DNA of 64,000 nucleotides from a virus (taxonomy: Duplodnaviria > Heunggongvirae > Uroviricota > Caudoviricetes). The notes under the pieces were generated by a model. That model made no database searches and was not told where the DNA came from. It worked only from the letters and a program-made list of their open reading frames with translations. A program made the translations under genes and the position numbers. The stretch lies in IMG/VR virus record IMGVR_UViG_2684623189_000005; one strand, given 5' to 3'. Positions 1 through 44,869 of the stretch are shown in pieces (the first letter of the stretch is position 1; every line of letters starts with the position of its first letter).

Positions 1-91
1 CACAACATCCGAGGACAGCAACACCCGATACTTTTTCCTGGCTTCCAGCAACGGGGTTTCTTCCTCCGTTGCATATACAGCTCACCTTTTT

Positions 92-385
92 TCACCCACG
101 ATTAACCAACAGCCAGACCAGCAGACACGCCACCACCGGCACAGCAAAATCCATCAGGCTTGCCACATCCCAAGCTCGCGGATCAAAACCGCCCCACCAC
201 GGCATATTCATTCGCTTGCCATGCCCGAACATTTCAATCCAGCGATATTCTGCCTGGGTATGTTCACGCGCAATGAAGAACGTACAACCGGCTATCGCTC
301 CGTAAGCCCAGTTTCCGGTAAAAAGACCAACCAGTATCTGCGCAGCCACAGCACAAAGCGCATGAAGTAAGGGGCTTATATCCAT
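92..385 (-). CDS. hypothetical small membrane protein
   Basis: 97-aa ORF with 2-3 hydrophobic segments; no recognised family; distal to side tail fibre gene. Confidence 0.3.
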   Translation of the reverse strand: MDISPLLHALCAVAAQILVGLFTGNWAYGAIAGCTFFIAREHTQAEYRWIEMFGHGKRMNMPWWGGFDPRAWDVASLMDFAVPVVACLLVWLLVNRG

Positions 386-397
386 TATTTCCTCCTT

Positions 398-676
398 TCA
401 GCTCCATTCCCGAAGCGGTGTTTCCAGCTCCACGACATAATCAGAGAATACAGAAACATCAAACAAGTCATCAAGAATGCGAATGTTGACAAAATAACCG
501 TCATTCCGGACACAGACAGGTTCTCCCTCTTCTGTTACCCCTGTTTCTGTGTAGGTGAAACCAATTTCATCGACTAACAGTTTATTCTGGAGGTCTTCAT
601 CCTCCTCCCAGTCAAGAGATGACAGGAAGGCCTTAAACTGCAGTTTGTCATGAAACTTCAAAGTTAAATCTTTCAT
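398..676 (-). CDS. hypothetical acidic protein immediately downstream of side tail fibre (possible fibre accessory factor)
   Basis: 92-aa ORF whose start overlaps the stf stop; lacks the usual Tfa C-terminal signature. Confidence 0.4.
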   Translation of the reverse strand: MKDLTLKFHDKLQFKAFLSSLDWEEDEDLQNKLLVDEIGFTYTETGVTEEGEPVCVRNDGYFVNIRILDDLFDVSVFSDYVVELETPLREWS

Positions 677-2739
677 ACGACCTCTTTTAATTGCCTGTCA
701 TTTAATTCTTTATGCCATATGCGGAAATTGCGAATATGGCCAAACAGATGTCGTTCTCCAGTATTCGTCTGCCCTCCAAATCGGATATTTTTATCAGCGG
801 TCACACCATTATATTCACAATAAACTTCATTAACCGCTTTACCATTTGTCACCACATGAAAGTGACCATCAGCTTTTGCAATACATCCAAATGTGGTTTT
901 CTCTGCAAATACATCTGTCGCTGCGCTATTAACATACAAGCCTGAAGGGTTTGACAGACTCATATATAACTTACCACTACCTCTGTTGATTGCTGCAATT
1001 GCTGATTGCCCGGTATTGGCTGCTGCTATATCCCACACGCGGGGTGCGGCGTTTGGTGCAATATCCCAGTTTTTATGAATCTCAAGTAAAAAAGTAAATG
1101 GTAACTTATAAAGATTATTTCTGGTGGGGATACTAACCAAATCACTGGCTCTTGTCGTTGCGCTGCCTCCTGAAATAATAAATGATGATACACACGGCCC
1201 ATTCTCTACTTGTGGGGTGGCAAGATAAATATAGTCACCAGATACTGTTGCCCCACCCCGCTCAGGAGAATACTGTATCTGAGAGCCTATTTTTAACTCA
1301 CCATCAATTGCCTGAATCGTTGCCTCTGCAAAAATCCAGCCTGTGGTCTTATCCTTCCTGACTCGTGCCGTAATTCTGCCGGCAGCCCCACCTGTCATAT
1401 TAATTTCAAGCGTTTGCGTATCAATGTACGCATCGCCAAGAAAAGTTGTTGCACTACCATCATACTTATCAAACCGTATACGTAACCTTACCTGTCGTTC
1501 TGTTTTAAAACGGCATGAGGTTGTCACGTACTTGTTATCGCCTGAGACATCAACTGACTTTGTTGCAGCAATTGATGCCATATTAATAGCCGAAGTTTGC
1601 CCAACCAGAGAATCGTTGCAGACAAACTTTCCATAAGTAAAACCAAAACTATCTGTCCCGGTTTCGGGCACATCCATGTTTGATGACTTCCCCCAGCTGG
1701 CTGGACTTTCCGAATTGAGCATGTAGTTCGTTCTTTGTCCCTCAATAAGCAGGCCATCACACTCAAATCGCGGCTCATTAATTTCCGCCGTTTTCAGTTC
1801 GCCAGATTTGTTGATATATGTTGCCGTTGATGCGCGACTGAAATTAACCTGTTTATCACTGGCGACCTGAACCACATCGTCACCAATAGCTATTTTTTTA
1901 TAGCCCGGAGAAAAACCCGCAATCATATCCAGTGAATCGTTAAACGGTATCCACACATCAGGCAGCGGCGGCACTATATTCGCATAGGGCTCTGCAGTCA
2001 CTTCCGCTGCGACTTCTGCGCGGTCTGCCGCCTTTTCAGCCCGTGTCGCTGCCGACAGAGCCTCATCCTTTTTCTGCCCGGCCTTTGTTGCGTCTGCTGC
2101 GGCCTCCCGCGCTTTTGTGGTGGCGACTCCGGCATTTTCAGCGGCTGACTCTGCATTACGGCGGGAAGCCTCTTCACTGTCTGCGGAGGCTTCTTCTGAC
2201 GCACGGGCATTTGTCTCTGAACGTTCTGCCGCTGTTGCTGCGTTTTGTGCGGCTGTTTTTGAAGAAGCTGCCGCTTTCGCGCTGTTACCTGCATTCGTCT
2301 CTGATGTTTTCGCCGCATTCCTGGACGATGCCGCTGCTGTTTCTGATTTCTTTGCTGCCGCTGCGCTCTGAGAGGCGGCTTCAGCGTTGCGTGCCACCTC
2401 TTCCACCATCTTTTCAAAACGATACAGTGCCTCCGGACGAACATCATCTTCTGTTGCAGCGCCCAGAAAATCATTCAATGTCCCCGGCTTAGAATCCTCA
2501 TACACGGTGATGGCCCCGGCATGTGAAGGCGGAAAACCTTCAACCAGCAGGATAACGCTGTACTGGCCATACTCGACATCCATGCTGTAACGTCCGGCTT
2601 CATCCGGATTTTCTGAGGCCACCGTGTTCACCACAACCGTGGTGCTGTTACGTTTTGCTTTGAGCTGAATGGTGCAGTTCTGTATCGGTTTTCCTGCACC
2701 GTCTTTCAGCACGCCTGAAATCTGTACTGCCATATTCAC
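673..2739 (-). CDS. stf: lambdoid side tail fibre protein (Stf-like N-terminus, Ala/Ser-rich stalk, lectin/LamG-like C-terminal domain)
   Basis: 688 aa; N-terminus MAVQISGVLKDGAGKPIQNCTIQLKAKRNSTTVVVNT matches the lambda Stf N-terminal domain as I recall it; lies directly downstream of the J 3' fragment. Confidence 0.8.
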   Translation of the reverse strand: MNMAVQISGVLKDGAGKPIQNCTIQLKAKRNSTTVVVNTVASENPDEAGRYSMDVEYGQYSVILLVEGFPPSHAGAITVYEDSKPGTLNDFLGAATEDDVRPEALYRFEKMVEEVARNAEAASQSAAAAKKSETAAASSRNAAKTSETNAGNSAKAAASSKTAAQNAATAAERSETNARASEEASADSEEASRRNAESAAENAGVATTKAREAAADATKAGQKKDEALSAATRAEKAADRAEVAAEVTAEPYANIVPPLPDVWIPFNDSLDMIAGFSPGYKKIAIGDDVVQVASDKQVNFSRASTATYINKSGELKTAEINEPRFECDGLLIEGQRTNYMLNSESPASWGKSSNMDVPETGTDSFGFTYGKFVCNDSLVGQTSAINMASIAATKSVDVSGDNKYVTTSCRFKTERQVRLRIRFDKYDGSATTFLGDAYIDTQTLEINMTGGAAGRITARVRKDKTTGWIFAEATIQAIDGELKIGSQIQYSPERGGATVSGDYIYLATPQVENGPCVSSFIISGGSATTRASDLVSIPTRNNLYKLPFTFLLEIHKNWDIAPNAAPRVWDIAAANTGQSAIAAINRGSGKLYMSLSNPSGLYVNSAATDVFAEKTTFGCIAKADGHFHVVTNGKAVNEVYCEYNGVTADKNIRFGGQTNTGERHLFGHIRNFRIWHKELNDRQLKEVV

Positions 2740-2791
2740 TCCACAAATAAAAAAGGCGCCATTTCTGGCGCCCGTATCTGGGTTATAAAAT

Positions 2792-3078
2792 TCAACTGAT
2801 ACTGATACCGGCTGTAGATTTCTTCATCACAACAACAAGAAGGTCGCTGATACTGGTCGTTGGCGTCCAGTTATTAGCACCATATGAAGAAACATTGAAA
2901 GTCAGGGTGACATGGCCGTGTCCGGCAGGCATATCAATGACTGATGAAAATACCCTGCTGACATCCGTCGCGGGTTGCTGAAAGATTTCCTGTCCGTTCT
3001 TCAGTACCTGCAGCTTACAGGTTGAATACCAGTATGACTGTTGGTTGTTGCTGTTGAAGTTTTCATGCTTACCCCCAC
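2792..3078 (-). pseudogene. J: 3' fragment of lambdoid host-specificity gene J (last ~95 codons), split from the 5' part by the Mu-like insertion
   Basis: Manual minus-strand translation gives ...[28 protein letters not shown]...[15 protein letters not shown]...[14 protein letters not shown], collinear with the lambda J C-terminus; in-frame with the J 5' part once the insertion is removed. Confidence 0.7.
3074..3078. repeat. target-site duplication, left copy (CCCAC; 5-6 bp, register ambiguous within a C-run)
   Basis: CCCCAC directly flanks TG at 3079 and is repeated directly after CA at 40289. Confidence 0.6.
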
Positions 3079-3125
3079 TGATGCGCCGCGCGATAAATGC
3101 ACTCTATCTTGTGCGATAAATGGCA
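3079..3125. repeat. left terminal region of Mu-like element with two direct GCGATAAATG repeats (putative transposase-binding sites)
   Basis: TGATGCGCCGCGCGATAAATGCACTCTATCTTGTGCGATAAATGG; resembles the CGATAAATGCG-type motif I recall at Mu ends. Confidence 0.5.
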
Positions 3126-3156
3126 TCCACGCGGCGTTTCATTATTTGAAAAAGAA

Positions 3157-3729
3157 TTACATTTCAGGTTGCGTTATGACAGTCCCAACAGGGTGGTAGC
3201 GGTAGATCGTTGACAGTCCAATATCATAGATAATTGCCAGCCGCTTTCTGTCATACCCTTTCTGGAGCAATCTTGCGATCTGCTCATGCTGCTCCTTCGT
3301 CAGTTTCGGGCGACGTCCTCCAACTCTTCCTTGTGCTCGCGCAGCAGCCAGTCCTGCCAGCGTGCGCTCAACTATCAGTTCACGCTCCATTTCTGCCAGT
3401 GCACCCATCATATGAAAAAAGAACCTTCCCATCGGAGTGCTGGTATCGATTGAATCCGTCAGACTGCGAAAATTGACACCTTTTGCGCGTAGCTCTTCTG
3501 TGAGAGCAATGAGGTGTTTCATTCTTCTACCCAACCGATCCAGCTTCCAGACCACCAATGTATCCCCTCTTTTAAGGCACTTTAAAGCGCGTTTCAGGCC
3601 TGGTCGTTCCGACTTGGTTCCGCTCATTTTGTCCTCAAAAATCTGTTCACATCCTGCGCACATTAATGCATTGCGTTGCAAATCTGTGTTTTGGTCATTT
3701 GTTGACACACGTATGTAGCCAATCAGCAT
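3157..3729 (-). CDS. gin: serine DNA invertase (Gin/Pin/Cin/Hin family)
   Basis: MLIGYIRVSTNDQNTDLQRNAL...GDTLVVWKLDRLGR...C-terminal HTH; start taken at internal Met 44 of the track ORF; adjacent to the invertible tail-fibre segment. Confidence 0.9.
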   Translation of the reverse strand: MLIGYIRVSTNDQNTDLQRNALMCAGCEQIFEDKMSGTKSERPGLKRALKCLKRGDTLVVWKLDRLGRRMKHLIALTEELRAKGVNFRSLTDSIDTSTPMGRFFFHMMGALAEMERELIVERTLAGLAAARAQGRVGGRRPKLTKEQHEQIARLLQKGYDRKRLAIIYDIGLSTIYRYHPVGTVITQPEM

Positions 3730-3784
3730 TAAAAATACTCCCTTTTGAGTGGTTAAAGTACTGAGATAATGTGGGGAGGATTTG

Positions 3785-3808
3785 AGAGATAAACGTTGGT
3801 TTGGGGGA
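3785..3808. other. gix/hix-like recombination crossover site 1 (AAACG-TT-GGTTT core)
   Basis: Partial palindrome at the 5' edge of a ~70-bp sequence repeated at 4299 and, inverted, at 5914. Confidence 0.5.
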
Positions 3809-4304
3809 AGGCTCTGCACTGCCTGTTGGTGTGCCTGTTCCATGGCCCACCGCCACACCGCCAGCAGGCTGGTTAAAGTGCGACGGGCGCGCCTTTACAA
3901 AAGAACAATATCCTGTTCTGGCCAGAGTCTACCCGACCCTCCGTCTTCCCGATTTGCGCGGTGAGTTTATCCGTGGATGGGACGACGGGCGCAAAGTTGA
4001 TACGGGGCGTTCATTGCTAAGTGGTCAGGCTGCAACATTTATTCGTACAGCTTTGCAGGATTATTACGGTTACGATCTGAATACTAATGTCAAAGTAGGT
4101 ATCGCTTTTGCTACTGCTGATTCTGTTATAACCGTTGGAAACCCAGCTAATCCTAAAGCAGGAAATAATAGCGATTATGTTCCTGCATCAGCAGATAACT
4201 CTATAACGGGTATTCAAAGGACAGCGGAGGATAATTTTACCGGGGCATGGATATCAATGCGCCCCCGCAATGTTGCGTTTAATTACATCGTAAGGGCCGC
4301 ATAA
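3801..4304 (+). CDS. promoterless alternative tail-fibre C-terminal cassette (Sv-type, distal copy)
   Basis: No ATG (TTG only); begins GEGSALPVGVPVPWPTATPPAGWL, identical to the crossover region inside the active fibre gene; ends NVAFNYIVRAA like other fibre tips. Confidence 0.7.
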   Translation: MGEGSALPVGVPVPWPTATPPAGWLKCDGRAFTKEQYPVLARVYPTLRLPDLRGEFIRGWDDGRKVDTGRSLLSGQAATFIRTALQDYYGYDLNTNVKVGIAFATADSVITVGNPANPKAGNNSDYVPASADNSITGIQRTAEDNFTGAWISMRPRNVAFNYIVRAA

Positions 4305-4322
4305 AAACGTTGGTTTGGGGGA
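4299..4322. other. gix/hix-like recombination crossover site 2
   Basis: ATAAAAACG-TT-GGTTTGGGGG; direct repeat of site 1. Confidence 0.5.
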
Positions 4323-4788
4323 AGGCTCTGCATTGCCTGTTGGTGTGCCTGTTCCGTGGCCCACCGCCACACCGCCAGCAGGCTGGTTACAGTGCAACGG
4401 AGCTACGTTCACCAAAGAACAATATCCTGTTCTGGCCAGAGTCTACCCGACCCTCCGTCTTCCCGATTTACGCGGTGAGTTTATCCGTGGATGGGACGAC
4501 GGGCGCAAGATTGACGAGGGGCGTAAGTTGCTTTCATGGCAGAAAGGTACACTGGTCGGCGGTCATGACGATAACGATTCTTCGCTGGATATCTCGTACA
4601 TGAGTAACGGAAATAATATTGACTATGGCGGCGATAAGGTGTTTGCGGGGAATTACCGTAGCGATTATTTGTGGTACGCAATTCTGGGTGGAACAAACAG
4701 TCGCGCAAAAGCCGAATTAAACGGAGCATTCTTTAACATAACCCGCCCCCGCAATATCGCGTTTAACTATATCGTGAGGGCGGCGTGA
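4315..4788 (+). CDS. promoterless alternative tail-fibre C-terminal cassette (Sv-type, proximal copy)
   Basis: Same conserved N-terminal crossover segment, divergent middle, conserved NIAFNYIVRAA end; converges on the Tfa gene. Confidence 0.7.
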   Translation: MGEGSALPVGVPVPWPTATPPAGWLQCNGATFTKEQYPVLARVYPTLRLPDLRGEFIRGWDDGRKIDEGRKLLSWQKGTLVGGHDDNDSSLDISYMSNGNNIDYGGDKVFAGNYRSDYLWYAILGGTNSRAKAELNGAFFNITRPRNIAFNYIVRAA

Positions 4789-4794
4789 TACCGT

Positions 4795-5409
4795 TCAGCT
4801 GGCAAGTGCCAGTGGCGCTTCCGGCCAGCTGATTTCAGGTGCCGTGCTGATATCCAGTGCGTTCAGCTCGTCGATATAATCCAGCACGGCGTTCAGTTTT
4901 GCCGTTTCTTCTGGTGTCAGACTGCGACCAGCACGCAGTTTGAGGTTGATAAGATCGACGGACGCCATCGCCTGTTTCACCCGTTGCTGGCGTTGCTGTC
5001 TGGCAACCTCCAGTTCTGCGGCTCGCTGCCGTTCAGTATCGGTTACCCACGCCTCACCGTTCCAGGTATCCCATGGCGTGGCCGGCTGTTTTGTGGTGGT
5101 GTCCGCCGGGTAATCACCCGGTTGGGTAATCAGAACGGGGTTACCGTTCTCCGTGCTGTATACCGTCTCGCCGCGGTGATCAGGCACATGCTCCCACCCG
5201 TTCAGCGTGGCAGTCCGGCAAACCACGTAACCCGAAATTGCCTCCGGCGGTGCATCGGCGCACGAATGTGCCGGAGTACCCACCCCAAGGGCGAGATACT
5301 CCACAGAGGATGAGGTGTATTCCCGGGTTTCCTCGTCATAGTGATATACAGTGATCTCGCCCGCTACAGTGGCGATACCGTTTTCATCCAGAACTGCAGT
5401 GTTACTCAT
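4795..5409 (-). CDS. U: tail fibre assembly protein (Tfa/U-like)
   Basis: 204 aa directly downstream of the fibre gene; C-terminal ...YIDELNALDISTAPEISWPEAP typical of Tfa chaperones. Confidence 0.8.
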   Translation of the reverse strand: MSNTAVLDENGIATVAGEITVYHYDEETREYTSSSVEYLALGVGTPAHSCADAPPEAISGYVVCRTATLNGWEHVPDHRGETVYSTENGNPVLITQPGDYPADTTTKQPATPWDTWNGEAWVTDTERQRAAELEVARQQRQQRVKQAMASVDLINLKLRAGRSLTPEETAKLNAVLDYIDELNALDISTAPEISWPEAPLALAS

Positions 5410-7046
5410 TAAACTGCCCTCACAATGTAATTAAGTGCAATGCTACGGGGTCTGACAGTGATACCCTTCGCATACCCGCTTCTGATAGAGGTCAGAATAG
5501 TAGCCTGCATACCATTGTCTGACATTGCCACGACAGGATCGCTGAATGTTGTCCCGTCCGGCATTTTAAAGCTGCCCTCACGAAGGTCTGTAATGGAATC
5601 TTCATTGTTGAATCCCATGCCGACTATCCCCGAGGTTCCCGTAGTGTCCTGGTTATAATAATCCAGCATTGCTGTTCTTAACAGCGTTGCCCCTTGTGCG
5701 GACAGCAACTTACGTCCTGTATCAACTTTGCGCCCGTCGTCCCATCCACGGATAAACTCACCGCGTAAATCGGGAAGACGGAGGGTCGGGTAGACTCTGG
5801 CCAGAACAGGATATTGTTCTTTAGTGAACGTAGCTCCGTTGCACTGTAACCAGCCTGCTGGCGGTGTGGCGGTGGGCCACGGAACAGGCACACCAACGGG
5901 TAGCGCCGAGCCTTCTCCTAAACCAAGGTAATTGAGGACATCTTTTATACTGCCCTTAGCGATAATAGCGCGACCAATAGCTGTAAGGGTTGCCAGCGCT
6001 GCGCGGTCTGCTCCGGTAAAATAAGGCAACCGATCTGCTGCAGTGGCAAGTCCTGCCAGAGCAGTGAGCGTGGCATCTGCCGGTTGTTTTCCGTTTGCCA
6101 GATCGTATGCAGCCTTGACCGCTTTCGGTGTGGCGGCCAGTATTTCAGACGTGCTGTTGATGGCACTGCTCAATTGTATGGTGCCTTTTGCCGTCAGCGA
6201 GGCAGCAGGCACTCCCGTTATCTGACTCCACGGGTGAGTGTGGCTGACGGGCGCCTTGCCGGCTGCAAGGTCGTATGCAGCCTTGACCGCCTTCGGCGTG
6301 GCAGCCTCAGTTTCTGATTGACTGTCCGTGGCGCTGCTCAGTTGTACGGTGCCTTTTGCCGTCAGCGAGGCAGCAGGCACTCCCGTTATCTGACTCCACG
6401 GGTGAGTGTGGCTGACGGGGGCCTTGCCGGCAGCCAGGTCATATGCAGCCTTGACGGCCTTTGGTGTGGCGGCCAGCGTTTCAGAGGTGCTGTTGGTGGC
6501 ACTGCTCAGTTGTACGATCCCTTTACGGGTCGTTGTTGCATCCTGGGCTGTGTATTTTCCCCGGGCCAGATCATACGCGATTTTCACAGCCTTCGGCGTG
6601 GCAGCCTCAGTTTCTGATTGACTGTCCGTGGCACTGCTCAGCTGTACGGTGCCTTTTGCCGTCAGCGAGGCAGCAGGCACTCCCGTTATCTGACTCCACG
6701 GGTGAGTGTGACTGACGGGTGCCTTGCCGGCTGCAAGGTCGTATGCAGCCTTGACGGCTTTTGGTGTGGCGGCCAGCGTTTCAGAGGTGCTGTTGGTGGC
6801 ACTGCTCAGTTGGGTGAACCCCTTAGCTGTCAGTGTCGCGTCCGGGTGGTTACGGGAACGTACGTGTTCAGCCAGTGACTGTGCGGCTTCCTCCGTTTTT
6901 TTCTTCAGCCATTTCGTCCTGTTTGCCAGTTGCCGGGGGGCTCGATTTGATATCCCGTCAGCACCACCCAGAACCGGATCTGATGTCTCCAGTTGATAGA
7001 TTTTTTCTTCCCACTTTTCTGTTTCATTCAGGTTTCCCATAATCAA
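5409..7046 (-). CDS. S: tail fibre protein (Mu S / P2 H-like) with internal repeats; currently expressed constant plus variable part
   Basis: 545 aa; N-terminus ...LETSDPVLGGADGISNRAPRQLANRT...; repeated KGxVQLSSATxSxSETxAATPKAVK units; C-terminus ends SIALNYIVRAV. Confidence 0.85.
   Translation of the reverse strand: MIMGNLNETEKWEEKIYQLETSDPVLGGADGISNRAPRQLANRTKWLKKKTEEAAQSLAEHVRSRNHPDATLTAKGFTQLSSATNSTSETLAATPKAVKAAYDLAAGKAPVSHTHPWSQITGVPAASLTAKGTVQLSSATDSQSETEAATPKAVKIAYDLARGKYTAQDATTTRKGIVQLSSATNSTSETLAATPKAVKAAYDLAAGKAPVSHTHPWSQITGVPAASLTAKGTVQLSSATDSQSETEAATPKAVKAAYDLAAGKAPVSHTHPWSQITGVPAASLTAKGTIQLSSAINSTSEILAATPKAVKAAYDLANGKQPADATLTALAGLATAADRLPYFTGADRAALATLTAIGRAIIAKGSIKDVLNYLGLGEGSALPVGVPVPWPTATPPAGWLQCNGATFTKEQYPVLARVYPTLRLPDLRGEFIRGWDDGRKVDTGRKLLSAQGATLLRTAMLDYYNQDTTGTSGIVGMGFNNEDSITDLREGSFKMPDGTTFSDPVVAMSDNGMQATILTSIRSGYAKGITVRPRSIALNYIVRAV
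5914..5937. other. gix/hix-like recombination crossover site 3 (inverted relative to sites 1 and 2)
   Basis: CTCCTAAACC-AA-GGTAATTGAG; reverse complement of the site 1/2 motif, followed by an inverted copy of the shared coding segment. Confidence 0.5.
6040..6880. repeat. ~300-bp tandem repeats inside the tail fibre gene (about 3 copies)
   Basis: Near-identical DNA blocks produce repeated antisense ORFs starting at 6318 and 6618 and repeated peptide units in S. Confidence 0.7.
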
Positions 7047-11078: not shown

Positions 11079-11959
11079 ACACTCCTCGTCAGTATTCTGG
11101 CGGCCATTGCACTTAATCCCGGAGACATGCGGTTGAATGCTGTTCCGACGGCGTTAAGCTGCCCGGAAACGGTATCCAGAGCACCTGCAATATTTCTTTT
11201 GTCCACACCACTCAGCACAGACTGTGCCTGCTGTACATACGTGGCTGCTTCGCTGGCTGTTCTGGCCAGACTGATGGCATCGGGCATGGATTCAGAGAGT
11301 GCGTTAAACGCCGGAACACTTTTCCCCAGAGCCCCGGAGATATTACCCAGTCCGCTCATCAGCCCCGGCACACGGGTCAGTGCGACAACGGGGTTATCCT
11401 TCATTTTCTGTGTCACTCGAACGGCGCTGATAGTGGTCTGGAGTACAGACTGCGCCTGTTTCGCATAGTTGACGCCGTTGCGGATGAACTGCGCCACCCC
11501 GGAAGGTGAAGGAATGGCACCGGAGACCGCCCCGACACCCGGGAGCTTCGTGCGTATTGCCGGTGGTTGCAGAGGATTTTTCGGGTCACCGGTGTATTCC
11601 CGGAGAGACACGGTGGCACTGACAGCCAGCACGTTGCCGGTACTGTCAGTCTGCTCGCTGGTTGCAGTCACATCGGTAATCACGAACCAGCCGCGATAGT
11701 CACCGTTGCCGAAGACCAGCGCCAGTGCCTGATGGGCTTTCATGGCTGTTCGCAGTCTCGCCAGCTCCACATCGGGTACACAATAATGCTGATGGAAAAC
11801 CAGAGTTATCTGGATTTCGTCCAGCCTGTCGCCGACGAACTGCAGGCCAGGCTTACCCCCGATGCGGGCATGCTCCGCATAATCGACGCCGAACGTGGCC
11901 TCGAAGCCGTCCCAGTAGGTAATCAGCTCAAACTCAATATCACCCAGTACGGCAAACAT
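11075..11959 (-). CDS. tail protein (P2 gpU / Mu gp43-like)
   Basis: 294 aa immediately downstream of the tape measure gene. Confidence 0.6.
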   Translation of the reverse strand: MFAVLGDIEFELITYWDGFEATFGVDYAEHARIGGKPGLQFVGDRLDEIQITLVFHQHYCVPDVELARLRTAMKAHQALALVFGNGDYRGWFVITDVTATSEQTDSTGNVLAVSATVSLREYTGDPKNPLQPPAIRTKLPGVGAVSGAIPSPSGVAQFIRNGVNYAKQAQSVLQTTISAVRVTQKMKDNPVVALTRVPGLMSGLGNISGALGKSVPAFNALSESMPDAISLARTASEAATYVQQAQSVLSGVDKRNIAGALDTVSGQLNAVGTAFNRMSPGLSAMAARILTRSV

Positions 11960-14900
11960 CAGCGGTACTCCTTACGTTGTTTCTGAGCCAGCAGACGCTC
12001 CAGCATTTTTTCCAGCTCATGCAGACTCATATTCAGGGCACCAGTCAGTCCTGCAGGCGCTGTGGTTTCCCTGCCATTGAGGAAAAACTGAGGATTAAAG
12101 CTGACCTGGATACCACCAGACGTTCCACCGCCGGTTGCAGCTGCACCACGGCCTGAATATCCGGCAGCCAGGATTTCAGGCGAGGGGATACGGGGAACAT
12201 CCGGTGTCATCTCATTTGCCAGACGTTGCCCTGGTAAAATCGATGCCCGGGTGGAGAGCGGAATAACGGGCATGGAAGACAAACTATTGATTACGGCTCC
12301 GATCGCATTTTTAGCAGACGACATAAACCCATTGATATCGGGCAACGGCATACTGAAGCGAACACCTGAAGTGTTATCCCGTATTTCTGGCCCCTGAATG
12401 CTCACGGGCATTCTGGGGAGCAGTTCACTGGCCATTCGCTGCCCGGCCAGAGCTGCAAGCGGAGTGGTCCGCTGCAGGCCAATGGCGGCCCCCTGCGCGA
12501 TATTGTCACCAAAGCCCATAAACACGCGGCTCGGCGAATGAATGCCCAGCTTTTCGCTGAACCAGCCACTGATGCTGTCACCCATTCCGGTTACACTGGA
12601 TTTGAGCGACTCCCATTTGTTTTTGATACCGTTAATCAGACCGTCGACAAGATGGCCACCGAAGTCGGTGAACTTTGCCGGCAGATCAACACCAAGATAT
12701 TTCAGCGCAGCTGCAAAGGCTTTATAGAGCAGACCTGCCGGCGACCAGTTAATCAGCAGCTTACCAGTTCCCGCGATACCGCCGTTAAAGGCTTCCTGAA
12801 TGTCAGCCCAGCACTGTTTAAACCAGCTACTGATGCTGTCACCCATTCCGGTTACACTGGATTTGAGCGACCCCCATTTGTTTTTGATACCGTTAATCAG
12901 ACCGTCGATAAGATGGCCACCGAAGTCGGTGAACTTTGCCGGCAGAGCAACGCCGAAATATTTCAGCGCAGCCGCAAAGGCTTTATAGAGCAGGCCTGCC
13001 GGCGACCAGTTAATCAGCAACTTACCAATTCCCACAATGCCGCCGTTAAAGGCTTCCTGAATGTCAGCCCAGCGCTGTTTAAACCAGCTACTGATGCTGT
13101 CACCCATTCCGGTTACACTGGATTTGAGCGACCCCCATTTGCTTTTGATACCGTTAATCAGACCGTCGATAAGATGGCCACCGAAGTCGGTGAACTTTGC
13201 CGGCAGAGCAACGCCGAAATATTTCAGCGCAGCCGCAAAGGCTTTATAGAGCAGGCCTGCCGGCGACCAGTTAATCAGCAACTTACCAATTCCCACAATG
13301 CCGCCGTTAAAGGCTTCCTGAATGTCAGCCCAGCGCTGTTTAAACCAACCACTGACAGCCCCCCAGTTGCGGTAGATAAGGTAAGCTGCTGTCGCGACAG
13401 CGGTGATAACGAGACCGATGGGATTCATCATCAGCGCTCGCCCAATCCAGAGAACGGCACGTGCAGCGCTCATAAAACCGCGAACGAGGCTGCCCGCCAG
13501 AACTTTGCTGAGTTTCAGTCCTCCGCTGGTCAGTCGGCTGAATCCAGTGACAAGCCAGCGTAATTTGCCACCTTCTCCGAGTGCGGTAGTCAGTCGATGC
13601 CAGTTGGTCCGGAGTAAAACAGTAGTTTTCCAGACGTTCACAAAGGGGGAAATAAGGAGATTCAGCCCCAGTTTGAGACCAATAGTCGCTATCTTAATCG
13701 CAAGGAGCGCACTGATGAGCTTAAAAGCCCCACTGACAAATTGCGGGTGAGTCGCTACCCAGTGTTTTGTCCCCTGAATGAGTGGGAGCAGTTCCTGAGT
13801 CAGAGAAATAAAAGATGGAGCTAATTGATCGCCCAGCGTAATTGCCAGATCGCGACTGCTGACCATAAGTGTTTTAGTGGCTTCAAGGGGAGATTTCAGC
13901 CGCTGATCATAAGCACTGGCAAGCAAATCGTTATCCGCAGCCCTGAGAGCACCGGCACGGATCTCTCGATATCTGTCCATGTTGGCCAGCATCGGGCGGA
14001 TAAATGCCATGACCTGCATATCCGCGAACATATCGCCCAGACCAAAGTTTTTCGCCAGAGCCTGAAGTGCCTCATCTCTTGCCGTATCATTCTTTATTTT
14101 CATGGCTGATTTGAAGCCGGCCAGCGCTTCGGGGCTTTTGGCATTGAGGTAACGTTCTATAACACTCAACATCCCTTCAATCGGAGAGATCCCCGCAGCT
14201 TTATAACTCGCAATAGATCCCTGCAAATCAATACCCAGATCAGCAAACTGTTTCTGAGTATCGCGGGCAAAAATTTTGGTAAGAAAGTTTTTAAAATTAT
14301 TGGCTGCTTCGTCGGTGGAACCTGCACCGATTTTTGCTATCTGGAGACTGGCCCCGATTTCAGCAACAGCCTCTTTTCCACTGGCAAGACCCGCCATCAT
14401 TGGGGCCAGGGACTGCATCCACTTGACCTGATCCGGGATTTCAAATGACCCCTGGTCACCGGCATAAGCCATAATATTCTGAACGGCACCAAAATCTCTG
14501 GCCGCACCTTTCAGGGAGTTTTGCCAGACTGCGGCCACTTTTGCCCAGTCCTGAGCAGACGTGCGTGTTGCCGTTGCCGCGCGGGCAATATCCGGCATCA
14601 GAAAACCGATATCTGACACATTATCAATATTGTCGCTGATGAGTGAACCCACCGCCTCCTGCAGCTCATCCTGATACTGATTGTATTTAAGCGCCCAGCC
14701 TTTTATCTGTCCGGCAAGTGCATCCCGCGTTTTATTGTCATATTTTGCGGTGATCGACATATCAATCATTTTGTCCTGAAAAGACATGGACTGCTGAACG
14801 GCAGGGGAAACCGTATGATAAACAGTCTGTGCCATGCCATACGCTTCAATCCCCTGACCATACAGCGCCATGCGGTTAGCTTTCAGCGCATCACTGGTAG

Positions 14901-15171
14901 CGGATGCCGCTGACAGACGGCGCTGCTGGCGCTCAATTTGCTCCATGGTGCGGCTTACCCGCAGCAGCTCGCTGTTGAGATGCTGCATCCGGGAAGAACC
15001 CAGTTGACCATAACGTTCTGTTGCACGGGTTAAAGCGTTCTGACGTTCCTGCAGGCGGCGTGAGGTATCGCTCAGGGAATCAAGCGCACGGCGGGTACCG
15101 CTCATTGCAGAACGGAATGTGCTGCCAATCATCCCGCCGATAACAACGCCGACTGAAAACTGTCCCGACAT
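11959..15171 (-). CDS. tail tape measure protein with internal 3 x 87-aa repeat
   Basis: 1070 aa, coiled-coil-rich N-terminus, hydrophobic segments; position after the chaperone pair. Confidence 0.85.
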   Translation of the reverse strand: MSGQFSVGVVIGGMIGSTFRSAMSGTRRALDSLSDTSRRLQERQNALTRATERYGQLGSSRMQHLNSELLRVSRTMEQIERQQRRLSAASATSDALKANRMALYGQGIEAYGMAQTVYHTVSPAVQQSMSFQDKMIDMSITAKYDNKTRDALAGQIKGWALKYNQYQDELQEAVGSLISDNIDNVSDIGFLMPDIARAATATRTSAQDWAKVAAVWQNSLKGAARDFGAVQNIMAYAGDQGSFEIPDQVKWMQSLAPMMAGLASGKEAVAEIGASLQIAKIGAGSTDEAANNFKNFLTKIFARDTQKQFADLGIDLQGSIASYKAAGISPIEGMLSVIERYLNAKSPEALAGFKSAMKIKNDTARDEALQALAKNFGLGDMFADMQVMAFIRPMLANMDRYREIRAGALRAADNDLLASAYDQRLKSPLEATKTLMVSSRDLAITLGDQLAPSFISLTQELLPLIQGTKHWVATHPQFVSGAFKLISALLAIKIATIGLKLGLNLLISPFVNVWKTTVLLRTNWHRLTTALGEGGKLRWLVTGFSRLTSGGLKLSKVLAGSLVRGFMSAARAVLWIGRALMMNPIGLVITAVATAAYLIYRNWGAVSGWFKQRWADIQEAFNGGIVGIGKLLINWSPAGLLYKAFAAALKYFGVALPAKFTDFGGHLIDGLINGIKSKWGSLKSSVTGMGDSISSWFKQRWADIQEAFNGGIVGIGKLLINWSPAGLLYKAFAAALKYFGVALPAKFTDFGGHLIDGLINGIKNKWGSLKSSVTGMGDSISSWFKQCWADIQEAFNGGIAGTGKLLINWSPAGLLYKAFAAALKYLGVDLPAKFTDFGGHLVDGLINGIKNKWESLKSSVTGMGDSISGWFSEKLGIHSPSRVFMGFGDNIAQGAAIGLQRTTPLAALAGQRMASELLPRMPVSIQGPEIRDNTSGVRFSMPLPDINGFMSSAKNAIGAVINSLSSMPVIPLSTRASILPGQRLANEMTPDVPRIPSPEILAAGYSGRGAAATGGGTSGGIQVSFNPQFFLNGRETTAPAGLTGALNMSLHELEKMLERLLAQKQRKEYR
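12540..13325. repeat. three tandem 261-bp repeats inside the tape measure gene
   Basis: Near-identical units beginning near 12542, 12800 and 13061 encode WFKQRWADIQEAFNGG...SSVTGMGDSISS three times and produce three repeated antisense ORFs. Confidence 0.85.
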
Positions 15172-33339: not shown

Positions 33340-35109
33340 ATGAATGCTGCCCTGACTGAACGACTGGTTTATGTCGCCCGCGCGGCACGTGACGCGGGGC
33401 ATGGTAAACGCGGTGCAATATACGACGCTGCCTGTGCTGAACTTGGCATGTCCCGCGCCACTCTGCTGCGCAGGCTGAAGGAGGTCTCTGTGACTGATAA
33501 ACGCAAAAAACGCGCTGATGCCGGACGCAGCGCCCTGACCCGCGACGAAGCCGCGCTGATATCTGCCACACTGCGTGAGGCCACCCGCAAGAACGGTAAA
33601 CGCCTCTATTCCATCGCAGATGCAGTGGAAACCCTGCGGGCTAACGGCTTTATCACCGCAGGCAGAACAGATGAAACCACCGGTGAGTTTTTCCCGTTGT
33701 CTGAAGATGCCATCAGCCGTGCTCTGCGTAACTATGGCCTGCACCCGGAACAACTGGATGCTCCTGCACCGCATACCGAAGTGGCCAGTCTGCACCCCAA
33801 TCATGTCTGGCAGATTGACGCCTCACTCTGCACGCTTTACTACCTGAGCAATGGACATAAAGGGCTGCAGGTGATGGACAGCGCGAAGTTCTACAAGAAC
33901 AAGCCCGCTAACCTTGCCCGTATCGCCAGTGACCGCGTGTGGAGTTACGAGATTACCGACCATGCCAGCGGCTGGATTTACGTTGAGTATGTGACGGGCG
34001 CGGAATCAGGTGAGAACCTGTGTTCTGTGCTTATCAACGCCATGCAGGAGCGTGGCGGCGCAGACGTGCTGCACGGCGTGCCAAAAATACTCTATCTCGA
34101 CCCCGGCTCGGCAAACACCGCGGGTATGACGAAAAACATGTGCCGCTCACTGGGCATCGACCTGATAGCGCACAAGCCGCATAACGCCCGCGCCACCGGA
34201 CAGGTGGAAAAGGCGCGGGACATTATCGAACGCAAGCTGGAGCCGGGTCTGAAGTTCCGGCCGGTTCACAGTCTGGAAGAACTCAATGCGCTGGCCGCGA
34301 AATGGCGCAGCCACTTTAACGCCACGGCTGTTCACAGCCGCCACGGTAAAACCCGCACGGATATCTGGCTGAAGATTACTGCTGAGCAGCTGAAAAAAGC
34401 GCCTTCCGTTGAGGTATGTCGTGAACTGGCTGTGGCGGCACCAGAACTCCGCAAAGTCACGCCAAAACTTCGTGTCTCGTTCCGGGGCACTGAATTTGAC
34501 GTATCAACGGTACCGGGCGTACTGGTCGGTGAAAAACTGATGATTACCCGTAACCCGTGGCGCAGCGATGTGGCACAGGTGGTTCTGACCGGTGAGGACG
34601 GCCACGAGACGTTCTTCCTGGTCGAAGAAGTCAGAAAGAACGAGTTTGGCTTTGCTGAAGGCGCGGCGGTATTTGGCGAAAGTTACAAAGCCCTGCCGGA
34701 AACCCCGGCGCAGATGGCGGCAAAAGAAACCGAAGCGCTGGTCACCGGTACAGACAACGCCGCAGATGCAGCTGCCGCACGCAAGGCGAAGGCGCTGCCG
34801 TTCGGCGGGCGGCTTGACCCATATAAACATATTGATGACGCCACACTTCCGGCCTATATGCCGAAGCGAGGTCAGGCCTCTGACGTACGCGGGCCGCGCA
34901 CTGAACAACGTCCCATGACTCATGTGGAGGCCGCGAAAGCCCTGCGCGATAAGTTCAGCGCCGACGGCCTTACCTGGACGCCGGAACATTACCGCCAGTT
35001 AACGGCACAGTATCCGGACGGCGTACCGGAAGCCGCACTGGATGAAGTCATGGCCACGCTGACCACGCCGGCCCGCAGCAGCGTTATCAGCATTGTTAAC
35101 GGCAACTGA
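33340..35109 (+). CDS. DDE transposase (Mu A-like function; integrase-core fold)
   Basis: 589 aa; N-terminal HTH, central ...HVWQIDAS... and ...ILYLDPGSANTAG... DDE-type core. Confidence 0.85.
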   Translation: MNAALTERLVYVARAARDAGHGKRGAIYDAACAELGMSRATLLRRLKEVSVTDKRKKRADAGRSALTRDEAALISATLREATRKNGKRLYSIADAVETLRANGFITAGRTDETTGEFFPLSEDAISRALRNYGLHPEQLDAPAPHTEVASLHPNHVWQIDASLCTLYYLSNGHKGLQVMDSAKFYKNKPANLARIASDRVWSYEITDHASGWIYVEYVTGAESGENLCSVLINAMQERGGADVLHGVPKILYLDPGSANTAGMTKNMCRSLGIDLIAHKPHNARATGQVEKARDIIERKLEPGLKFRPVHSLEELNALAAKWRSHFNATAVHSRHGKTRTDIWLKITAEQLKKAPSVEVCRELAVAAPELRKVTPKLRVSFRGTEFDVSTVPGVLVGEKLMITRNPWRSDVAQVVLTGEDGHETFFLVEEVRKNEFGFAEGAAVFGESYKALPETPAQMAAKETEALVTGTDNAADAAAARKAKALPFGGRLDPYKHIDDATLPAYMPKRGQASDVRGPRTEQRPMTHVEAAKALRDKFSADGLTWTPEHYRQLTAQYPDGVPEAALDEVMATLTTPARSSVISIVNGN

Positions 35110-35119
35110 GGAGGGATAC

Positions 35120-36286
35120 ATGCTGGTACTGAAGCAGCAACTGAAAGAGGCCCGTATTCCACAGGCGGTGGTGGCGAGAGCTGTCGATGTTTCTGAGGCC
35201 ACGCTGGCCCAGATTGTGAATCATAACGCGTGGCCCCGCACCAGCCCCGGAGAAGTGCGCCGGCGTCTTGCGTCCTGGCTGGAAAGTCAGGGGATTGATA
35301 CAACGAAGAGTTTTGATGCTGTACAGGGCGCGGCCACGCCCCGTACAGCGGGTACCACAGATAAAACGAGCCTCAGTGAGGAAGAGAATATGTTACTCAA
35401 AAAACAGGTGTTATTTCCAGCAACCAAAAAAGCGTTTGGTCTTTTCCGTGACCCGTTCGCCGACGAAGCCATGCAGGGTTCTGATGATGTGTTCACCACT
35501 CCGGACATTCGCTACGTGCGTGAGGCGCTGTACCAGACAGCCCGTCATGGTGGGTTTATGGCCGTCATCGGTGAGTCCGGTGCGGGTAAATCCACGCTGC
35601 GCCGTGACCTGACTGAACGTATCAACCGCGAGAATGCGCCGGTGATTGTTATCGAGCCATACATCATCGCTATGGAAGACAACGATGTGAAAGGGAAAAC
35701 CCTGAAGGCAGCAGCGATTGCCGAAGCCATTATCAGTACCATCGCACCACTGGAAAGCATCAGACGCAGTCAGGACGCCCGCTTTCGCCAGCTGCATCGC
35801 GTCCTGAAAGACAGCAGCCAGGCGGGGTTCAGCCACGTTCTGGTGATTGAGGAGGCCCACAGTCTGCCCATTCCGACACTGAAACACCTCAAACGCTTTT
35901 TTGAGCTGGAGTCCGGTTTCAAAAAACTGCTGTCCATCGTGCTGATTGGCCAGCCGGAACTGGCGACAAAACTGTCTGAACGCAATATGGAAGTCCGTGA
36001 AGTCGTTCAGCGCTGTGAGGTGGTCGAACTTCTGCCTCTGGACAATAACCTTGAAGAGTTTCTGACGTTCAAACTGCAACGGGCCGGTAAACAACTGACG
36101 GACATTATGGACGCCAGCGCAGTGGATGCCATACGTGCCCGCCTGAGCAATCCGGGAAGTCATCGTAAAAATATGGTCAGCCTGCTGTATCCGCTGGCCG
36201 TCAGTAACCTGGTAATAGCCGCCATGAATCTGGCCGCTGAAATCGGGGTTCCACAGGTCAACGCTGACGTTGTCAAAGGGGTTTAA
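35120..36286 (+). CDS. transposition ATPase (MuB/TniB-like AAA+)
   Basis: Walker A GESGAGKST, Walker B HVLVIEEAH; GAGGAGGG ribosome-binding site before the ATG at 35120. Confidence 0.8.
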   Translation: MLVLKQQLKEARIPQAVVARAVDVSEATLAQIVNHNAWPRTSPGEVRRRLASWLESQGIDTTKSFDAVQGAATPRTAGTTDKTSLSEEENMLLKKQVLFPATKKAFGLFRDPFADEAMQGSDDVFTTPDIRYVREALYQTARHGGFMAVIGESGAGKSTLRRDLTERINRENAPVIVIEPYIIAMEDNDVKGKTLKAAAIAEAIISTIAPLESIRRSQDARFRQLHRVLKDSSQAGFSHVLVIEEAHSLPIPTLKHLKRFFELESGFKKLLSIVLIGQPELATKLSERNMEVREVVQRCEVVELLPLDNNLEEFLTFKLQRAGKQLTDIMDASAVDAIRARLSNPGSHRKNMVSLLYPLAVSNLVIAAMNLAAEIGVPQVNADVVKGV

Positions 36287-39109: not shown

Positions 39110-39325
39110 ATGACGGCTGAATCTGTTGTATGTGCCCTGTTCTGGTATTGTTTTGCCGGTTGGTGTACTGCTGAACTGCACCGCCGTTCAGGGTTTTATT
39201 CACGTTACAGTGGTGCCGGCTACTGGATTAGCTGGTCGGTGATGTTCCTGTGCTGGCCTGTGGCGCTTCCTTTATATGTCGATTATATCGGTGGCGCAGG
39301 TAAAAGGAGCAACGATGATGACTAA
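39110..39325 (+). CDS. small Trp/Cys-rich membrane protein
   Basis: 71 aa with two hydrophobic helices. Confidence 0.4.
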   Translation: MTAESVVCALFWYCFAGWCTAELHRRSGFYSRYSGAGYWISWSVMFLCWPVALPLYVDYIGGAGKRSNDDD

Positions 39326-40157: not shown

Positions 40158-43491
<3,334 letters not shown>

Positions 43492-43551
43492 TCCTCATGC
43501 TCCATAAACGATAAAACCGCCCGGAGGCGGTTTCACATAAAACATTTTGCA

Positions 43552-44864: not shown

Positions 44865-44869
44865 GGGAT

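What the first reader, a model, noticed from the sequence alone, without database searches (positions are those of the whole stretch)
3801..5409. Alternative fibre tips lack their own assembly chaperone
Only the active tip is followed by a Tfa/U-like gene (4795..5409). The two silent cassettes are tandem on the plus strand and converge on that single U gene. After inversion a new tip would have no chaperone gene downstream in the same orientation. Either these tips fold without Tfa, U acts in trans, or the switch is partly degenerate.
Basis: inference. Interest (0 to 1): 0.45.

Follow-up and report, generated by a model that had tools for sequence, protein, structure and literature searches.

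The report
One chaperone for three fibre tips
A Mu-like prophage of E. coli swaps three tail-fibre tips by DNA inversion but has only one fibre-assembly chaperone gene; this layout is common and of a known kind, and is best explained by a chaperone that recognises the part all tips share.

Summary
Three tips of the phage tail collar type (active Sv0 5409-5924, silent c1 3798-4304 and c2 4312-4788) share one Tfa gene (4795-5409). There is no room for a hidden U' gene.

The switch is not degenerate. Both predicted inversion products occur in complete E. coli genomes (87 and 75 genomes), with half-sites exchanged exactly at the central TT of a gix-like site. Of 107 cassettes in related loci, 104 are intact.

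The layout of one Tfa with many chaperone-less tips recurs widely. It appears in P2-like prophages, including the EPEC "shufflon" shown experimentally in 2014, in a Klebsiella phage, and in P1/p15B Min-like loci with up to about 9 cassettes.

The tips resemble T4 gp37: a conserved collar, made of the first ~75 and last ~14 residues, with a hypervariable insert. Across relatives the Tfa N-terminal domain stays 43-62% identical while the partner tips' inserts are unrelated. c2-type tips in three other genera keep their own Tfa.

Best reading: one family-generic Tfa serves all tips.

Unresolved: how Tfa is expressed when it is inverted. This applies to about half of natural isomers, and always when c2 is active. 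No convincing promoter was found.

The parts
3157..3726 (-). Gin/Din-family serine DNA invertase. It is the last gene of the Mu-like prophage, whose right end is at about 3079.
   Evidence: Pfam Resolvase 8e-51 plus HTH_7. phmmer E 9e-93 to Mu Gin structures 4M6F/3UJ3, aligned over residues 1-180. Prophage end from a flank comparison of four genomes.
3727..3783 (.). Fixed spacer between the invertase start and the invertible DNA. It must hold the invertase promoter. It also holds an unverified extended -10-like TGAGATAAT (3762-3770, + strand) facing the segment.
   Evidence: The motif is not conserved in the other single-Tfa families, so it is a candidate only.
3784..3809 (+). Crossover site 1 (gix/hix-like): GAGAGATAAACG-TT-GGTTTGGGGGAA, core TT at 3796-3797.
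   Evidence: Its left half is found joined to the Sv0 right half in L003.
3798..4304 (+). Silent tip cassette c1 (collar plus variable insert plus C-terminal strand). It has no start codon of its own in vivo.
   Evidence: Pfam Collar 6.6e-16. Found fused to the constant part in 75 complete E. coli genomes (L003).
4298..4323 (+). Crossover site 2: CGCATAAAAACG-TT-GGTTTGGGGGAA, core TT at 4310-4311. Its left half contains the c1 stop codon.
   Evidence: Its left half is found joined to the Sv0 right half in L002.
4312..4788 (+). Silent tip cassette c2. It always converges on Tfa, whatever the isomer.
   Evidence: Pfam Collar 1.4e-15. Found fused to the constant part in 87 complete E. coli genomes (L002).
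4795..5409 (-). The only tail fibre assembly (Tfa/U-like) gene. Its ATG overlaps the Sv0 stop (TAATG), and it has its own GAGGG Shine-Dalgarno 7 nt upstream.
   Evidence: Pfam Caudo_TAP 3.5e-28. Sequence. No other copy in the window.
5409..5924 (-). Active tip Sv0, the variable 3' part of the fibre gene in this isomer.
   Evidence: Pfam Collar 3.1e-15. phmmer to the T4 gp37 tip 2XGF 2.7e-14 and to the short tail fibre 9CUY 6e-16.
5913..5938 (-). Crossover site 3 at the constant/variable border: TCCTCAATTACC-TT-GGTTTAGGAGAA, core at 5926-5925.
5927..7040 (-). Constant 5' part (Sc) of the fibre gene, carrying Phage_fiber_2 repeats.
   Evidence: Pfam PF03406 1e-93. PGAP annotation of the identical locus. 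Tandem repeat 6096-6524.

Best explanation
This is a three-site, four-isomer tail-fibre 'shufflon' of a Mu-like transposable prophage. It is driven by a Gin-family invertase acting at 26-bp gix-like sites with a TT core. Each cassette encodes one T4-gp37-like collar domain. The first ~75 and last ~14 residues are nearly invariant, and the receptor-binding part is a hypervariable insert between them. The single Tfa is a family-generic chaperone. Its N-terminal domain is inferred to work on the conserved collar and C-terminal strand that all cassettes share, so one gene is enough for all three tips. Because every site sits at the 5' end of its cassette, the cassettes always form a run of rightward units followed by a run of leftward units. 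The two units at the convergence point, Sv0-Tfa and c2, never change partners. Tfa is therefore always the last gene of one of two convergent runs. In two isomers it is co-transcribed with the fibre. In the other two it must be expressed from the invertase side, from an internal start, or only at a low level. Shown: the anatomy, the sites, the natural isomers, the generality of the layout, and the conservation patterns. Inferred: that Tfa binds the conserved part and serves c1 and c2. Unknown: the expression route when Tfa is inverted.
For: - **Sites and isomers.** Left and right half-sites are exchanged exactly at TT in L002 and L003. The Sc-c2 and Sc-c1 junctions occur in 87 and 75 complete E. 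coli genomes, against 63 with the window layout. All four isomer layouts are seen in IMG/VR loci, though partly in two-cassette loci or with allelic cassettes. Tfa is antisense in about half of them.
- **Generality.** One Tfa with 2 to about 9 chaperone-less cassettes occurs in 30+ loci, including p15B-Min-like ones, Klebsiella phage KP12 and the experimentally verified EPEC E2348/69 shufflon.
- **Cassettes are maintained.** 104 of 107 are intact. Column identity is about 0.8-1.0 at the N-terminus, 0.94 over the last 14 aa and 0.05-0.3 in the middle. pN/pS is 0.22 for c1 and 0.20 for c2.
- **gp37 analogy.** phmmer hits 2XGF at the collar, and the C-terminal motif resembles gp37's (KNIAFNYIVR vs PRSIALNYIVR), though that stretch is not significant on its own. 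In gp37 the collar is residues 811-881 plus 1010-1026, with the needle as an insertion (PMC6957217).
- **Tfa tracks the conserved part.** Its N-domain is 47-62% identical (91% in L025) to Tfa proteins whose partner tips are only 4-16% identical in the insert.
- **Tfa is usually present.** Non-invertible relatives (HK97, EtG, L025, Serratia) always have a Tfa overlapping the tip stop. c2-type tips in Erwinia, Serratia and Enterobacter carry their own Tfa of the same family, with no tip-specific clustering.
- **Literature.** Lambda Tfa substitutes for T4 gp38, and a conserved chaperone accompanies gp37-like tips with different receptors (PMC9659904).
Against: - No convincing promoter for Tfa in the inverted state. 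The sigma-70 scan found nothing usable. The invertase-proximal spacer has no motif shared by the single-Tfa families.
- In the Sc-c2 isomer the fibre transcript would run antisense through Tfa, because the stops are 6 nt apart and there is no terminator above chance.
- Published Tfa structures (Mu, Pam3) have the N-domain binding the distal, variable part of the fibre, not a conserved collar.
- No binding or structural evidence was obtained here. The AF2 monomer of c2 was unusable, with mean pLDDT 49.
- Erwinia L051 keeps two Tfa genes for two collar tips, so a single Tfa is not universal for this tip family.
Confidence: 0.55

Rival explanations
1. c1 and c2 (or at least c2) fold and trimerise without any Tfa. 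The chaperone is needed only by Sv0, with which it is translationally linked.
For: c2 can never be co-oriented with Tfa (topology). No promoter was found for inverted Tfa. The fibre transcript would be antisense to Tfa in that isomer. Other collar-domain fibres such as T4 gp12 do not use a gp38/Tfa-type chaperone (established knowledge). The Sv0-Tfa unit is always inherited together, while c1 and c2 alleles are swapped freely.
Against: c2-type tips at 62-73% identity in Erwinia, Serratia and Enterobacter each have a co-oriented Tfa overlapping their stop. All non-invertible relatives examined have one. Pfam finds no intramolecular chaperone domain in the cassettes, only Collar, and they end in the same 14-residue strand as Sv0.
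Confidence: 0.2
2. Isomers with Tfa inverted make few or no functional fibres. The switch is functionally lopsided, and this cost is tolerated because inversion happens in the lysogen.
For: No expression route was identified. In the Enterobacter phage FRphi shufflon only one of three locked tip isoforms infected the tested host (PMC13418256). That is also what ordinary host-range differences would give. I could not check whether that locus is homologous or which tip is Tfa-linked.
Against: c2 can only ever be used with Tfa inverted, yet c2-position cassettes are intact and conserved in dozens of diverged loci, with pN/pS about 0.2. A never-functional cassette should decay. The layout persists with up to about 9 cassettes in P1-like elements.
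Confidence: 0.1
3. Tfa is supplied in trans by other resident prophages when the local copy is inverted.
For: E. coli genomes with this element have a median of 3-4 related places and up to 18. Some strains carry two related prophages in different isomeric states (strain M-17: H18 and H51). Tfa proteins of HK97, EPEC and Min type are 57-62% identical in the N-domain. Cross-complementation is documented for lambda Tfa and T4 gp38.
Against: It depends on co-induction of another element. Nothing in the 64-kb window supplies it: there is no second Tfa homologue, and the adjacent lambdoid stf has no Caudo_TAP neighbour. A phage infecting a new host could not rely on it.
Confidence: 0.08

Closest known systems
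Mu G segment / P1 C segment / e14 P segment (Gin, Cin, Pin)
   Same: The invertase is very close to Mu Gin (E 9e-93). Sites are 26-bp gix-like with a 2-bp core at the constant/variable border of the fibre gene. The invertase gene lies just outside the segment. The host-range switching logic is the same.
   Different: The classical segments have two sites, two tips and two chaperone genes (S-U and S'-U'). The EPEC Mu prophage L050 shows that layout. Here there are three sites, three tips of one protein family and a single chaperone gene.
Min multiple-inversion system of plasmid p15B (Sandmeier, Iida, Arber 1991-92; from memory, papers not held)
   Same: More than two crossover sites fuse alternative 3' cassettes to one constant 5' part. 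The loci I fetched that carry a truncated second invertase (psi-win-like) next to an 85%-identical invertase show the same collar cassettes, the same site sequence and a single Tfa at the convergence point.
   Different: Those are P1-like plasmid prophages with 6 to about 9 cassettes and a 56%-identical Tfa. The window element is a chromosomal Mu-like transposable prophage with 3 cassettes and no psi-win.
EPEC E2348/69 P2-like prophage 'shufflon' (Goldberg et al. 2014, PMC4272514)
   Same: It has three IRs, two nested inversions (2009 and 1577 bp there; about 2130 and 1616 bp here), four coexisting variants and three alternative C-termini. Its annotation shows exactly one Tfa, antisense to the fibre in the reference isomer.
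   Different: The phage backbone is different (P2-like). There a tail operon converges from the invertase side, which could transcribe the inverted Tfa. The Tfa is 58-61% identical. The paper does not discuss the chaperone.
T4 gp37 tip with gp38, and lambda Stf with Tfa
   Same: The collar domain and C-terminal strand are homologous to the gp37 tip. The chaperone belongs to the Caudo_TAP family. One conserved chaperone type accompanies tips with different receptors.
   Different: The window's three tips lack the HxH iron-binding motifs of the gp37 needle, although some related cassettes have HxH. gp37 also needs gp57A. T4 and lambda have no DNA inversion.
R64 shufflon (Rci, PilV tips)
   Same: It has multiple inversions that assemble alternative C-terminal tips on one constant gene.
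   Different: It uses a tyrosine recombinase and a pilus adhesin, and no chaperone gene is involved.

Membership tests
Din-family (Gin/Cin/Pin/Hin/Min) invertase switch | Small serine recombinase with a catalytic N-domain and a C-terminal HTH, close to Gin | tested here: met
   Pfam Resolvase plus HTH_7. E 9e-93 to Mu Gin 4M6F/3UJ3 over residues 1-180.
Din-family (Gin/Cin/Pin/Hin/Min) invertase switch | 26-bp imperfect-palindrome crossover sites with a 2-bp core, in inverted orientation | tested here: met
   Three sites of the form nnnnnnTAAACG/TT/GGTTTRGGRGAA.
Din-family (Gin/Cin/Pin/Hin/Min) invertase switch | Inversion actually occurs, giving reciprocal products | tested here: met
   Half-sites are swapped at TT in L002 and L003. 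Junctions occur in 87 and 75 genomes.
Din-family (Gin/Cin/Pin/Hin/Min) invertase switch | Fis-dependent recombinational enhancer in the 5' part of the invertase gene | not tested
   The 5' coding region is conserved, but Fis sites were not analysed.
Classical two-tip G/C/P segment | Each alternative tip is followed by its own Tfa/U gene | tested here: not met
   There is a single Caudo_TAP gene and no space for another.
Min-type multiple inversion system / tail-fibre shufflon | More than two crossover sites, with promoterless 3' cassettes fused to one constant 5' part | tested here: met
   Three sites and three cassettes. In-frame fusions were predicted and then found.
Min-type multiple inversion system / tail-fibre shufflon | More than two isomers exist in nature | tested here: met
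   All four isomer layouts are seen across genomes and IMG/VR loci. Four variants were confirmed by PCR in the EPEC homologue.
T4 gp37-type collar/needle tip | Collar (D10-like) domain built from the N-terminal part plus the extreme C-terminal strand, with the receptor-binding part as an insertion | tested here: inconclusive
   Sequence similarity lies at both ends (the C-terminal stretch is not significant on its own) and the conservation pattern fits. The 3-D check failed (AF2 pLDDT 49).
T4 gp37-type collar/needle tip | HxH iron-binding repeats in the needle | tested here: not met
   Absent from c1, c2 and Sv0. Present in some related cassettes, such as HYHNIRS and HAHGLPS.
Tfa / Caudo_TAP chaperones | Caudo_TAP domain, with the gene directly after and overlapping the fibre gene | tested here: met
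   PF02413 3.5e-28 and a TAATG overlap with Sv0. Homologues carry Caudo_TAP_N plus Caudo_TAP.
Tfa / Caudo_TAP chaperones | Chaperone activity on the fibre tip | not testable with these tools
   Needs co-expression or genetic tests.

The most novel reading that the evidence does not exclude
Placing the single Tfa at the invariant convergence point is an adaptive design. Tfa is always the terminal gene of one of two convergent transcription units. A dedicated promoter at the invertase-proximal border then transcribes the 'silent' cassettes as a leader for the chaperone whenever Tfa faces that way. Candidates are TTGACA 3702-3707 /16 nt/ CAGCAT 3724-3729, antisense over the invertase start, or TGAGATAAT 3762-3770. 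Chaperone supply would then be independent of orientation. This would be an undescribed regulatory layer of tail-fibre shufflons. It would also explain why these systems can stack many cassettes while classical G segments cannot.
Probability: 0.25. Interest if true: 0.5.

Novelty: new member of a known kind. Interest (0 to 1): 0.3.

Why it matters
A chaperone that works on the shared collar rather than on the receptor-binding insert would explain how phages and P1-like plasmids can hold large libraries of interchangeable tips at about 0.5 kb each. It would also give phage and tailocin engineers a practical rule: keep the collar, the C-terminal strand and this Tfa, and swap only the insert. The open expression question can be tested directly with invertase-deleted, locked lysogens, which have already been built for a related Enterobacter phage. 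Otherwise the element is an ordinary, widespread prophage feature.

Tried and rejected
1. Hidden small U' ORF: rejected on coordinates and by tblastn.
2. Pseudogenised cassettes: rejected.
3. Sigma-70 promoter for inverted Tfa: the scan found 1 site against 3.2 expected, and it is irrelevant. My looser scan of the invertase-proximal region in 10 loci found nothing that separates single-Tfa from two-Tfa families.
4. Terminator-like hairpin at 4886-4905, antisense inside Tfa: terminator counts equal chance, and the peptide it encodes is not conserved in other Tfa families. Not pursued.
5. Homology between the Tfa N-domain and the collar, suggested by weak tblastn hits at E 0.26-0.57: hhalign probability 2.7%. 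Rejected.
6. AF2 of c2 with a 40-sequence alignment: mean pLDDT 49, so no fold search was run.
7. Intramolecular chaperone domain in the tips: Pfam finds only Collar.
8. The genome-contig scan with Tfa gave a single short locus.
9. The Sandmeier 1991/1992 p15B papers and Nguyen 2001 are not held, so statements about p15B rest on memory and on the Min-like loci I fetched.
10. I could not obtain the FRphi (Enterobacter sp. BIDMC93) sequence to check its chaperone layout.
Full report
**What is there**

On the minus strand the window carries a Mu-type tail module: tape measure, gpD-like, V, W, J and I-like genes (PGAP names). It ends in a 543-545-aa fibre gene (5409-7040/7046) with Phage_fiber_2 repeats and a C-terminal Pfam Collar domain.

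A 204-aa Caudo_TAP gene (Tfa, 4795-5409) follows, and its ATG overlaps the fibre stop. On the plus strand, pointing at Tfa, lie two ORFs of 167 and 157 aa (c1 3801-4304, c2 4315-4788). Each has a Collar domain at about 1e-15.

A 189-aa serine recombinase (3157-3726, minus strand) comes next. It matches Mu Gin at E 9e-93 over residues 1-180. Long inverted repeats link the 5' ends of c1 and c2 to the fibre gene: 274 nt at 84% and 229 nt at 93%.

There is no room for a small U' gene. c1's stop lies inside the next crossover site, and c2's stop is 6 nt from the convergent Tfa stop. tblastn finds no second Tfa in the 64 kb.

**Sites and products**

Aligning the three junctions shows that homology begins at a gix/hix-like 26-mer with a TT core:
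- GAGAGATAAACG-TT-GGTTTGGGGGAA at 3784-3809
- CGCATAAAAACG-TT-GGTTTGGGGGAA at 4298-4323
- TCCTCAATTACC-TT-GGTTTAGGAGAA on the minus strand at 5938-5913

I built the two predicted in-frame fusions, Sc-c2 and Sc-c1, and searched 5,426 complete E. coli genomes. Sc-c2 is present in 87 genomes and Sc-c1 in 75. The window arrangement is present in 63.

In strains EC11 (L002) and DA33135 (L003) the left and right half-sites are exchanged exactly at TT. These are genuine site-specific inversion products. In both, Tfa is antisense to the fibre operon.

The prophage sits in prpR, yqhA, gspL or, in this window, inside a lambdoid prophage. The right end is identical in all four. It is therefore a transposable, Mu-like phage.

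**Topology**

Every site lies at the 5' end of its cassette. The cassettes therefore always form a run of co-oriented units followed by a run of opposite units. An inversion spanning the convergence point swaps sides but never separates the two innermost units.

Four isomers are possible:
- Sc-Sv0>Tfa>|<c2<c1, the arrangement in this window
- Sc-c2>|<Tfa<Sv0<c1
- Sc-c1>c2>|<Tfa<Sv0
- Sc-c1>Sv0>Tfa>|<c2

All four layouts occur among genomes and IMG/VR loci, though some examples are two-cassette loci or carry allelic versions of c1 and c2. Tfa is antisense in about half of them. c2 can never have Tfa downstream in its own orientation.

With equal isomer frequencies the tips should appear at 50:25:25. 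That ratio was reported for the three-tip shufflon of Enterobacter phage FRphi (PMC13418256). I could not check whether FRphi's locus is homologous to this one.

**Generality and prior knowledge**

A scan of IMG/VR with Tfa returned 37 loci. Wherever an invertase is present, there is one Tfa directly after one cassette, and all other cassettes lack a chaperone and converge on it.

The number of cassettes runs from 2 to about 9. The largest sets lie next to an 85%-identical invertase and a truncated second invertase. From memory, that is the signature of the p15B Min region; the original papers are not held.

Klebsiella phage KP12 has the two-tip version. Goldberg et al. 2014 demonstrated by sequencing and PCR a "shufflon" in EPEC E2348/69 with three IRs, two nested inversions, four coexisting variants and three C-termini. 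Its annotation shows the same layout with one Tfa, inverted in the reference isomer. The kind of system is therefore known. The chaperone question is not discussed in the papers I could read.

**Are the silent tips functional?**

Of 107 cassettes recovered from 43 loci, 104 are intact; two of the three exceptions are in a poorly assembled phage record. There are 69 distinct sequences in about a dozen insert types.

Column identity is about 0.8-1.0 over the first 75 residues and 0.94 over the last 14 (RPRNIAFNYIVRA). It is 0.05-0.3 in between. pN/pS among close alleles is 0.22 for c1, 0.20 for c2 and 0.17 for Sv0. Counts are small and the pairs are not independent.

c2-position cassettes can be expressed only with Tfa inverted, and yet they are maintained. 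A degenerate switch is therefore rejected.

**What the tips are**

Sv0 matches the T4 gp37 tip (2XGF, 2.7e-14) at the collar. Its C-terminal motif also resembles gp37's (KNIAFNYIVR vs PRSIALNYIVR), although that stretch is not significant on its own. It also matches a short tail fibre (9CUY) and T4 gp12.

In gp37 the collar domain D10 is residues 811-881 plus 1010-1026, and the needle D11 is an insertion into it (PMC6957217). This matches the conservation pattern of the cassettes.

The window's three tips lack the HxH motifs of the gp37 needle, though some relatives have them. An AF2 monomer model of c2 was too poor to use, with pLDDT 49. Pfam finds no intramolecular chaperone domain.

**Does this tip family need Tfa, and is Tfa tip-specific?**

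In non-invertible relatives a ~200-aa Tfa always overlaps the tip's stop: HK97 stf/tfa, Erwinia phage EtG, L025 and a Serratia prophage.

P2-like phages with two different tip families carry two different Tfa genes. c2-type tips at 62-73% identity in Erwinia aphidicola, Serratia odorifera and Enterobacter hormaechei each have their own co-oriented Tfa, of Caudo_TAP_N plus Caudo_TAP type.

The Tfa N-domain (residues 1-100) of the window protein is 43-62% identical to all of these, and 91% to L025. The partner tips' inserts are only 4-16% identical. There is no clustering by tip type: the two Tfa proteins of the Erwinia locus are 67% identical to each other.

The Tfa that pairs with a non-collar tip lacks this N-domain altogether (16-21%). 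The chaperone therefore follows the conserved collar, not the receptor-binding insert. This fits the literature: lambda Tfa can replace T4 gp38, and a conserved chaperone accompanies gp37-like tips with different receptors (PMC9659904).

It departs from the Mu and Pam3 structures, where a non-conserved N-domain binds the distal fibre.

**Best explanation and what remains open**

The most economical reading is that one family-generic Tfa serves all three tips. Specificity is not the problem. Expression is.

In the two isomers where Tfa is inverted, no sigma-70-type promoter stands out. The 57-nt spacer next to the invertase has an extended -10-like TGAGATAAT in this family only. A TTGACA/CAGCAT pair overlaps the invertase start but is conserved for coding reasons. 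In the Sc-c2 isomer the fibre transcript would read antisense through Tfa.

In the EPEC prophage a tail operon converges from the invertase side and could supply the transcript. In the Mu-like element the invertase is the last gene, so that route does not exist.

Three alternatives therefore remain open: Tfa-independent folding of c1 and c2, reduced fibre yield in the Tfa-inverted isomers, and supply from other prophages.

**Verdict**

It is a new member of a known kind (Gin-family, Min-type tail-fibre shufflon). The "missing chaperone" is most likely a shared chaperone. The one unexplained point is how Tfa is made when it is inverted. That is a modest, well-posed question, testable with locked lysogens.

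Noticed in passing
window 3079 to about 40200: The fibre switch belongs to a Mu-like transposable prophage. Its right end (…ATTTATCGCGCGGCGCATCA on the minus strand) is at about 3079, and the invertase is its last gene. The same prophage is inserted in prpR, yqhA and gspL in other strains. Early genes (rve transposase 33340-35109, AAA MuB-like 35093-36286, Gam 36586-37116, GemA 39276-39767) are on the plus strand and late genes on the minus strand. The modules are therefore divergent, unlike Mu.
   Followed up: partly
window 92-2739 and 40258-48455: The Mu-like prophage sits inside a lambdoid prophage, between its J gene (40258-43491) and tape measure (45894-48455) on one side and a lambda-Stf-like side fibre (673-2739; phage_tail_N plus a Laminin_G_3-like C-terminus) on the other. 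The two small ORFs after that stf (398-676, 92 aa; 92-385, 97 aa) have no Pfam hit. That fibre also has no recognisable Caudo_TAP neighbour.
   Followed up: partly
window 12560-13355: The tape-measure gene (11959-15171) contains three tandem copies of a 261-nt (87-aa) unit at 96% identity. This implies a recently lengthened tail ruler.
   Followed up: partly
window 6096-6846: The constant part of the fibre gene carries 168/300-nt direct repeats (Phage_fiber_2 units). Related genomes differ here: several hits cover only window 3100-6812 (query 1-3713), and the L003 fibre gene is 1923 nt against 1632 nt. Repeat copy number appears to vary.
   Followed up: no
window 3796-4311 (compare H23-H30 and L008/L009): Many E. 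coli genomes carry the same locus lacking exactly one 514-bp cassette, leaving two tips and one Tfa. This would result from deletion, or duplication, between the two directly repeated crossover sites or their 230-nt homology.
   Followed up: no
window 3702-3729 and 3762-3770 (+ strand): Two promoter-like elements face the invertible DNA. One is TTGACA/16 nt/CAGCAT, overlapping the invertase start codon in antisense. The other is an extended -10-like TGAGATAAT. Neither is conserved as a promoter in the other single-Tfa families.
   Followed up: partly
L051 (Erwinia aphidicola), L053 (Enterobacter hormaechei), L044/L045 (P2-like phages): Related invertase loci keep the classical layout of two tips and two Tfa genes. 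In Erwinia both tips are collar-type and both Tfa proteins have the Caudo_TAP_N domain. This looks like the state from which the single-Tfa shufflon could arise by loss of one chaperone gene.
   Followed up: partly
related cassettes in L006, L026-L036: Several cassette types start their variable insert with HxH motifs (HYHNIRS, HAHGLPS, HRHIVVA, HSHYFER, HAHYMEL). These recall the iron-binding HxH repeats of the T4 gp37 needle. The window's three tips lack them.
   Followed up: no
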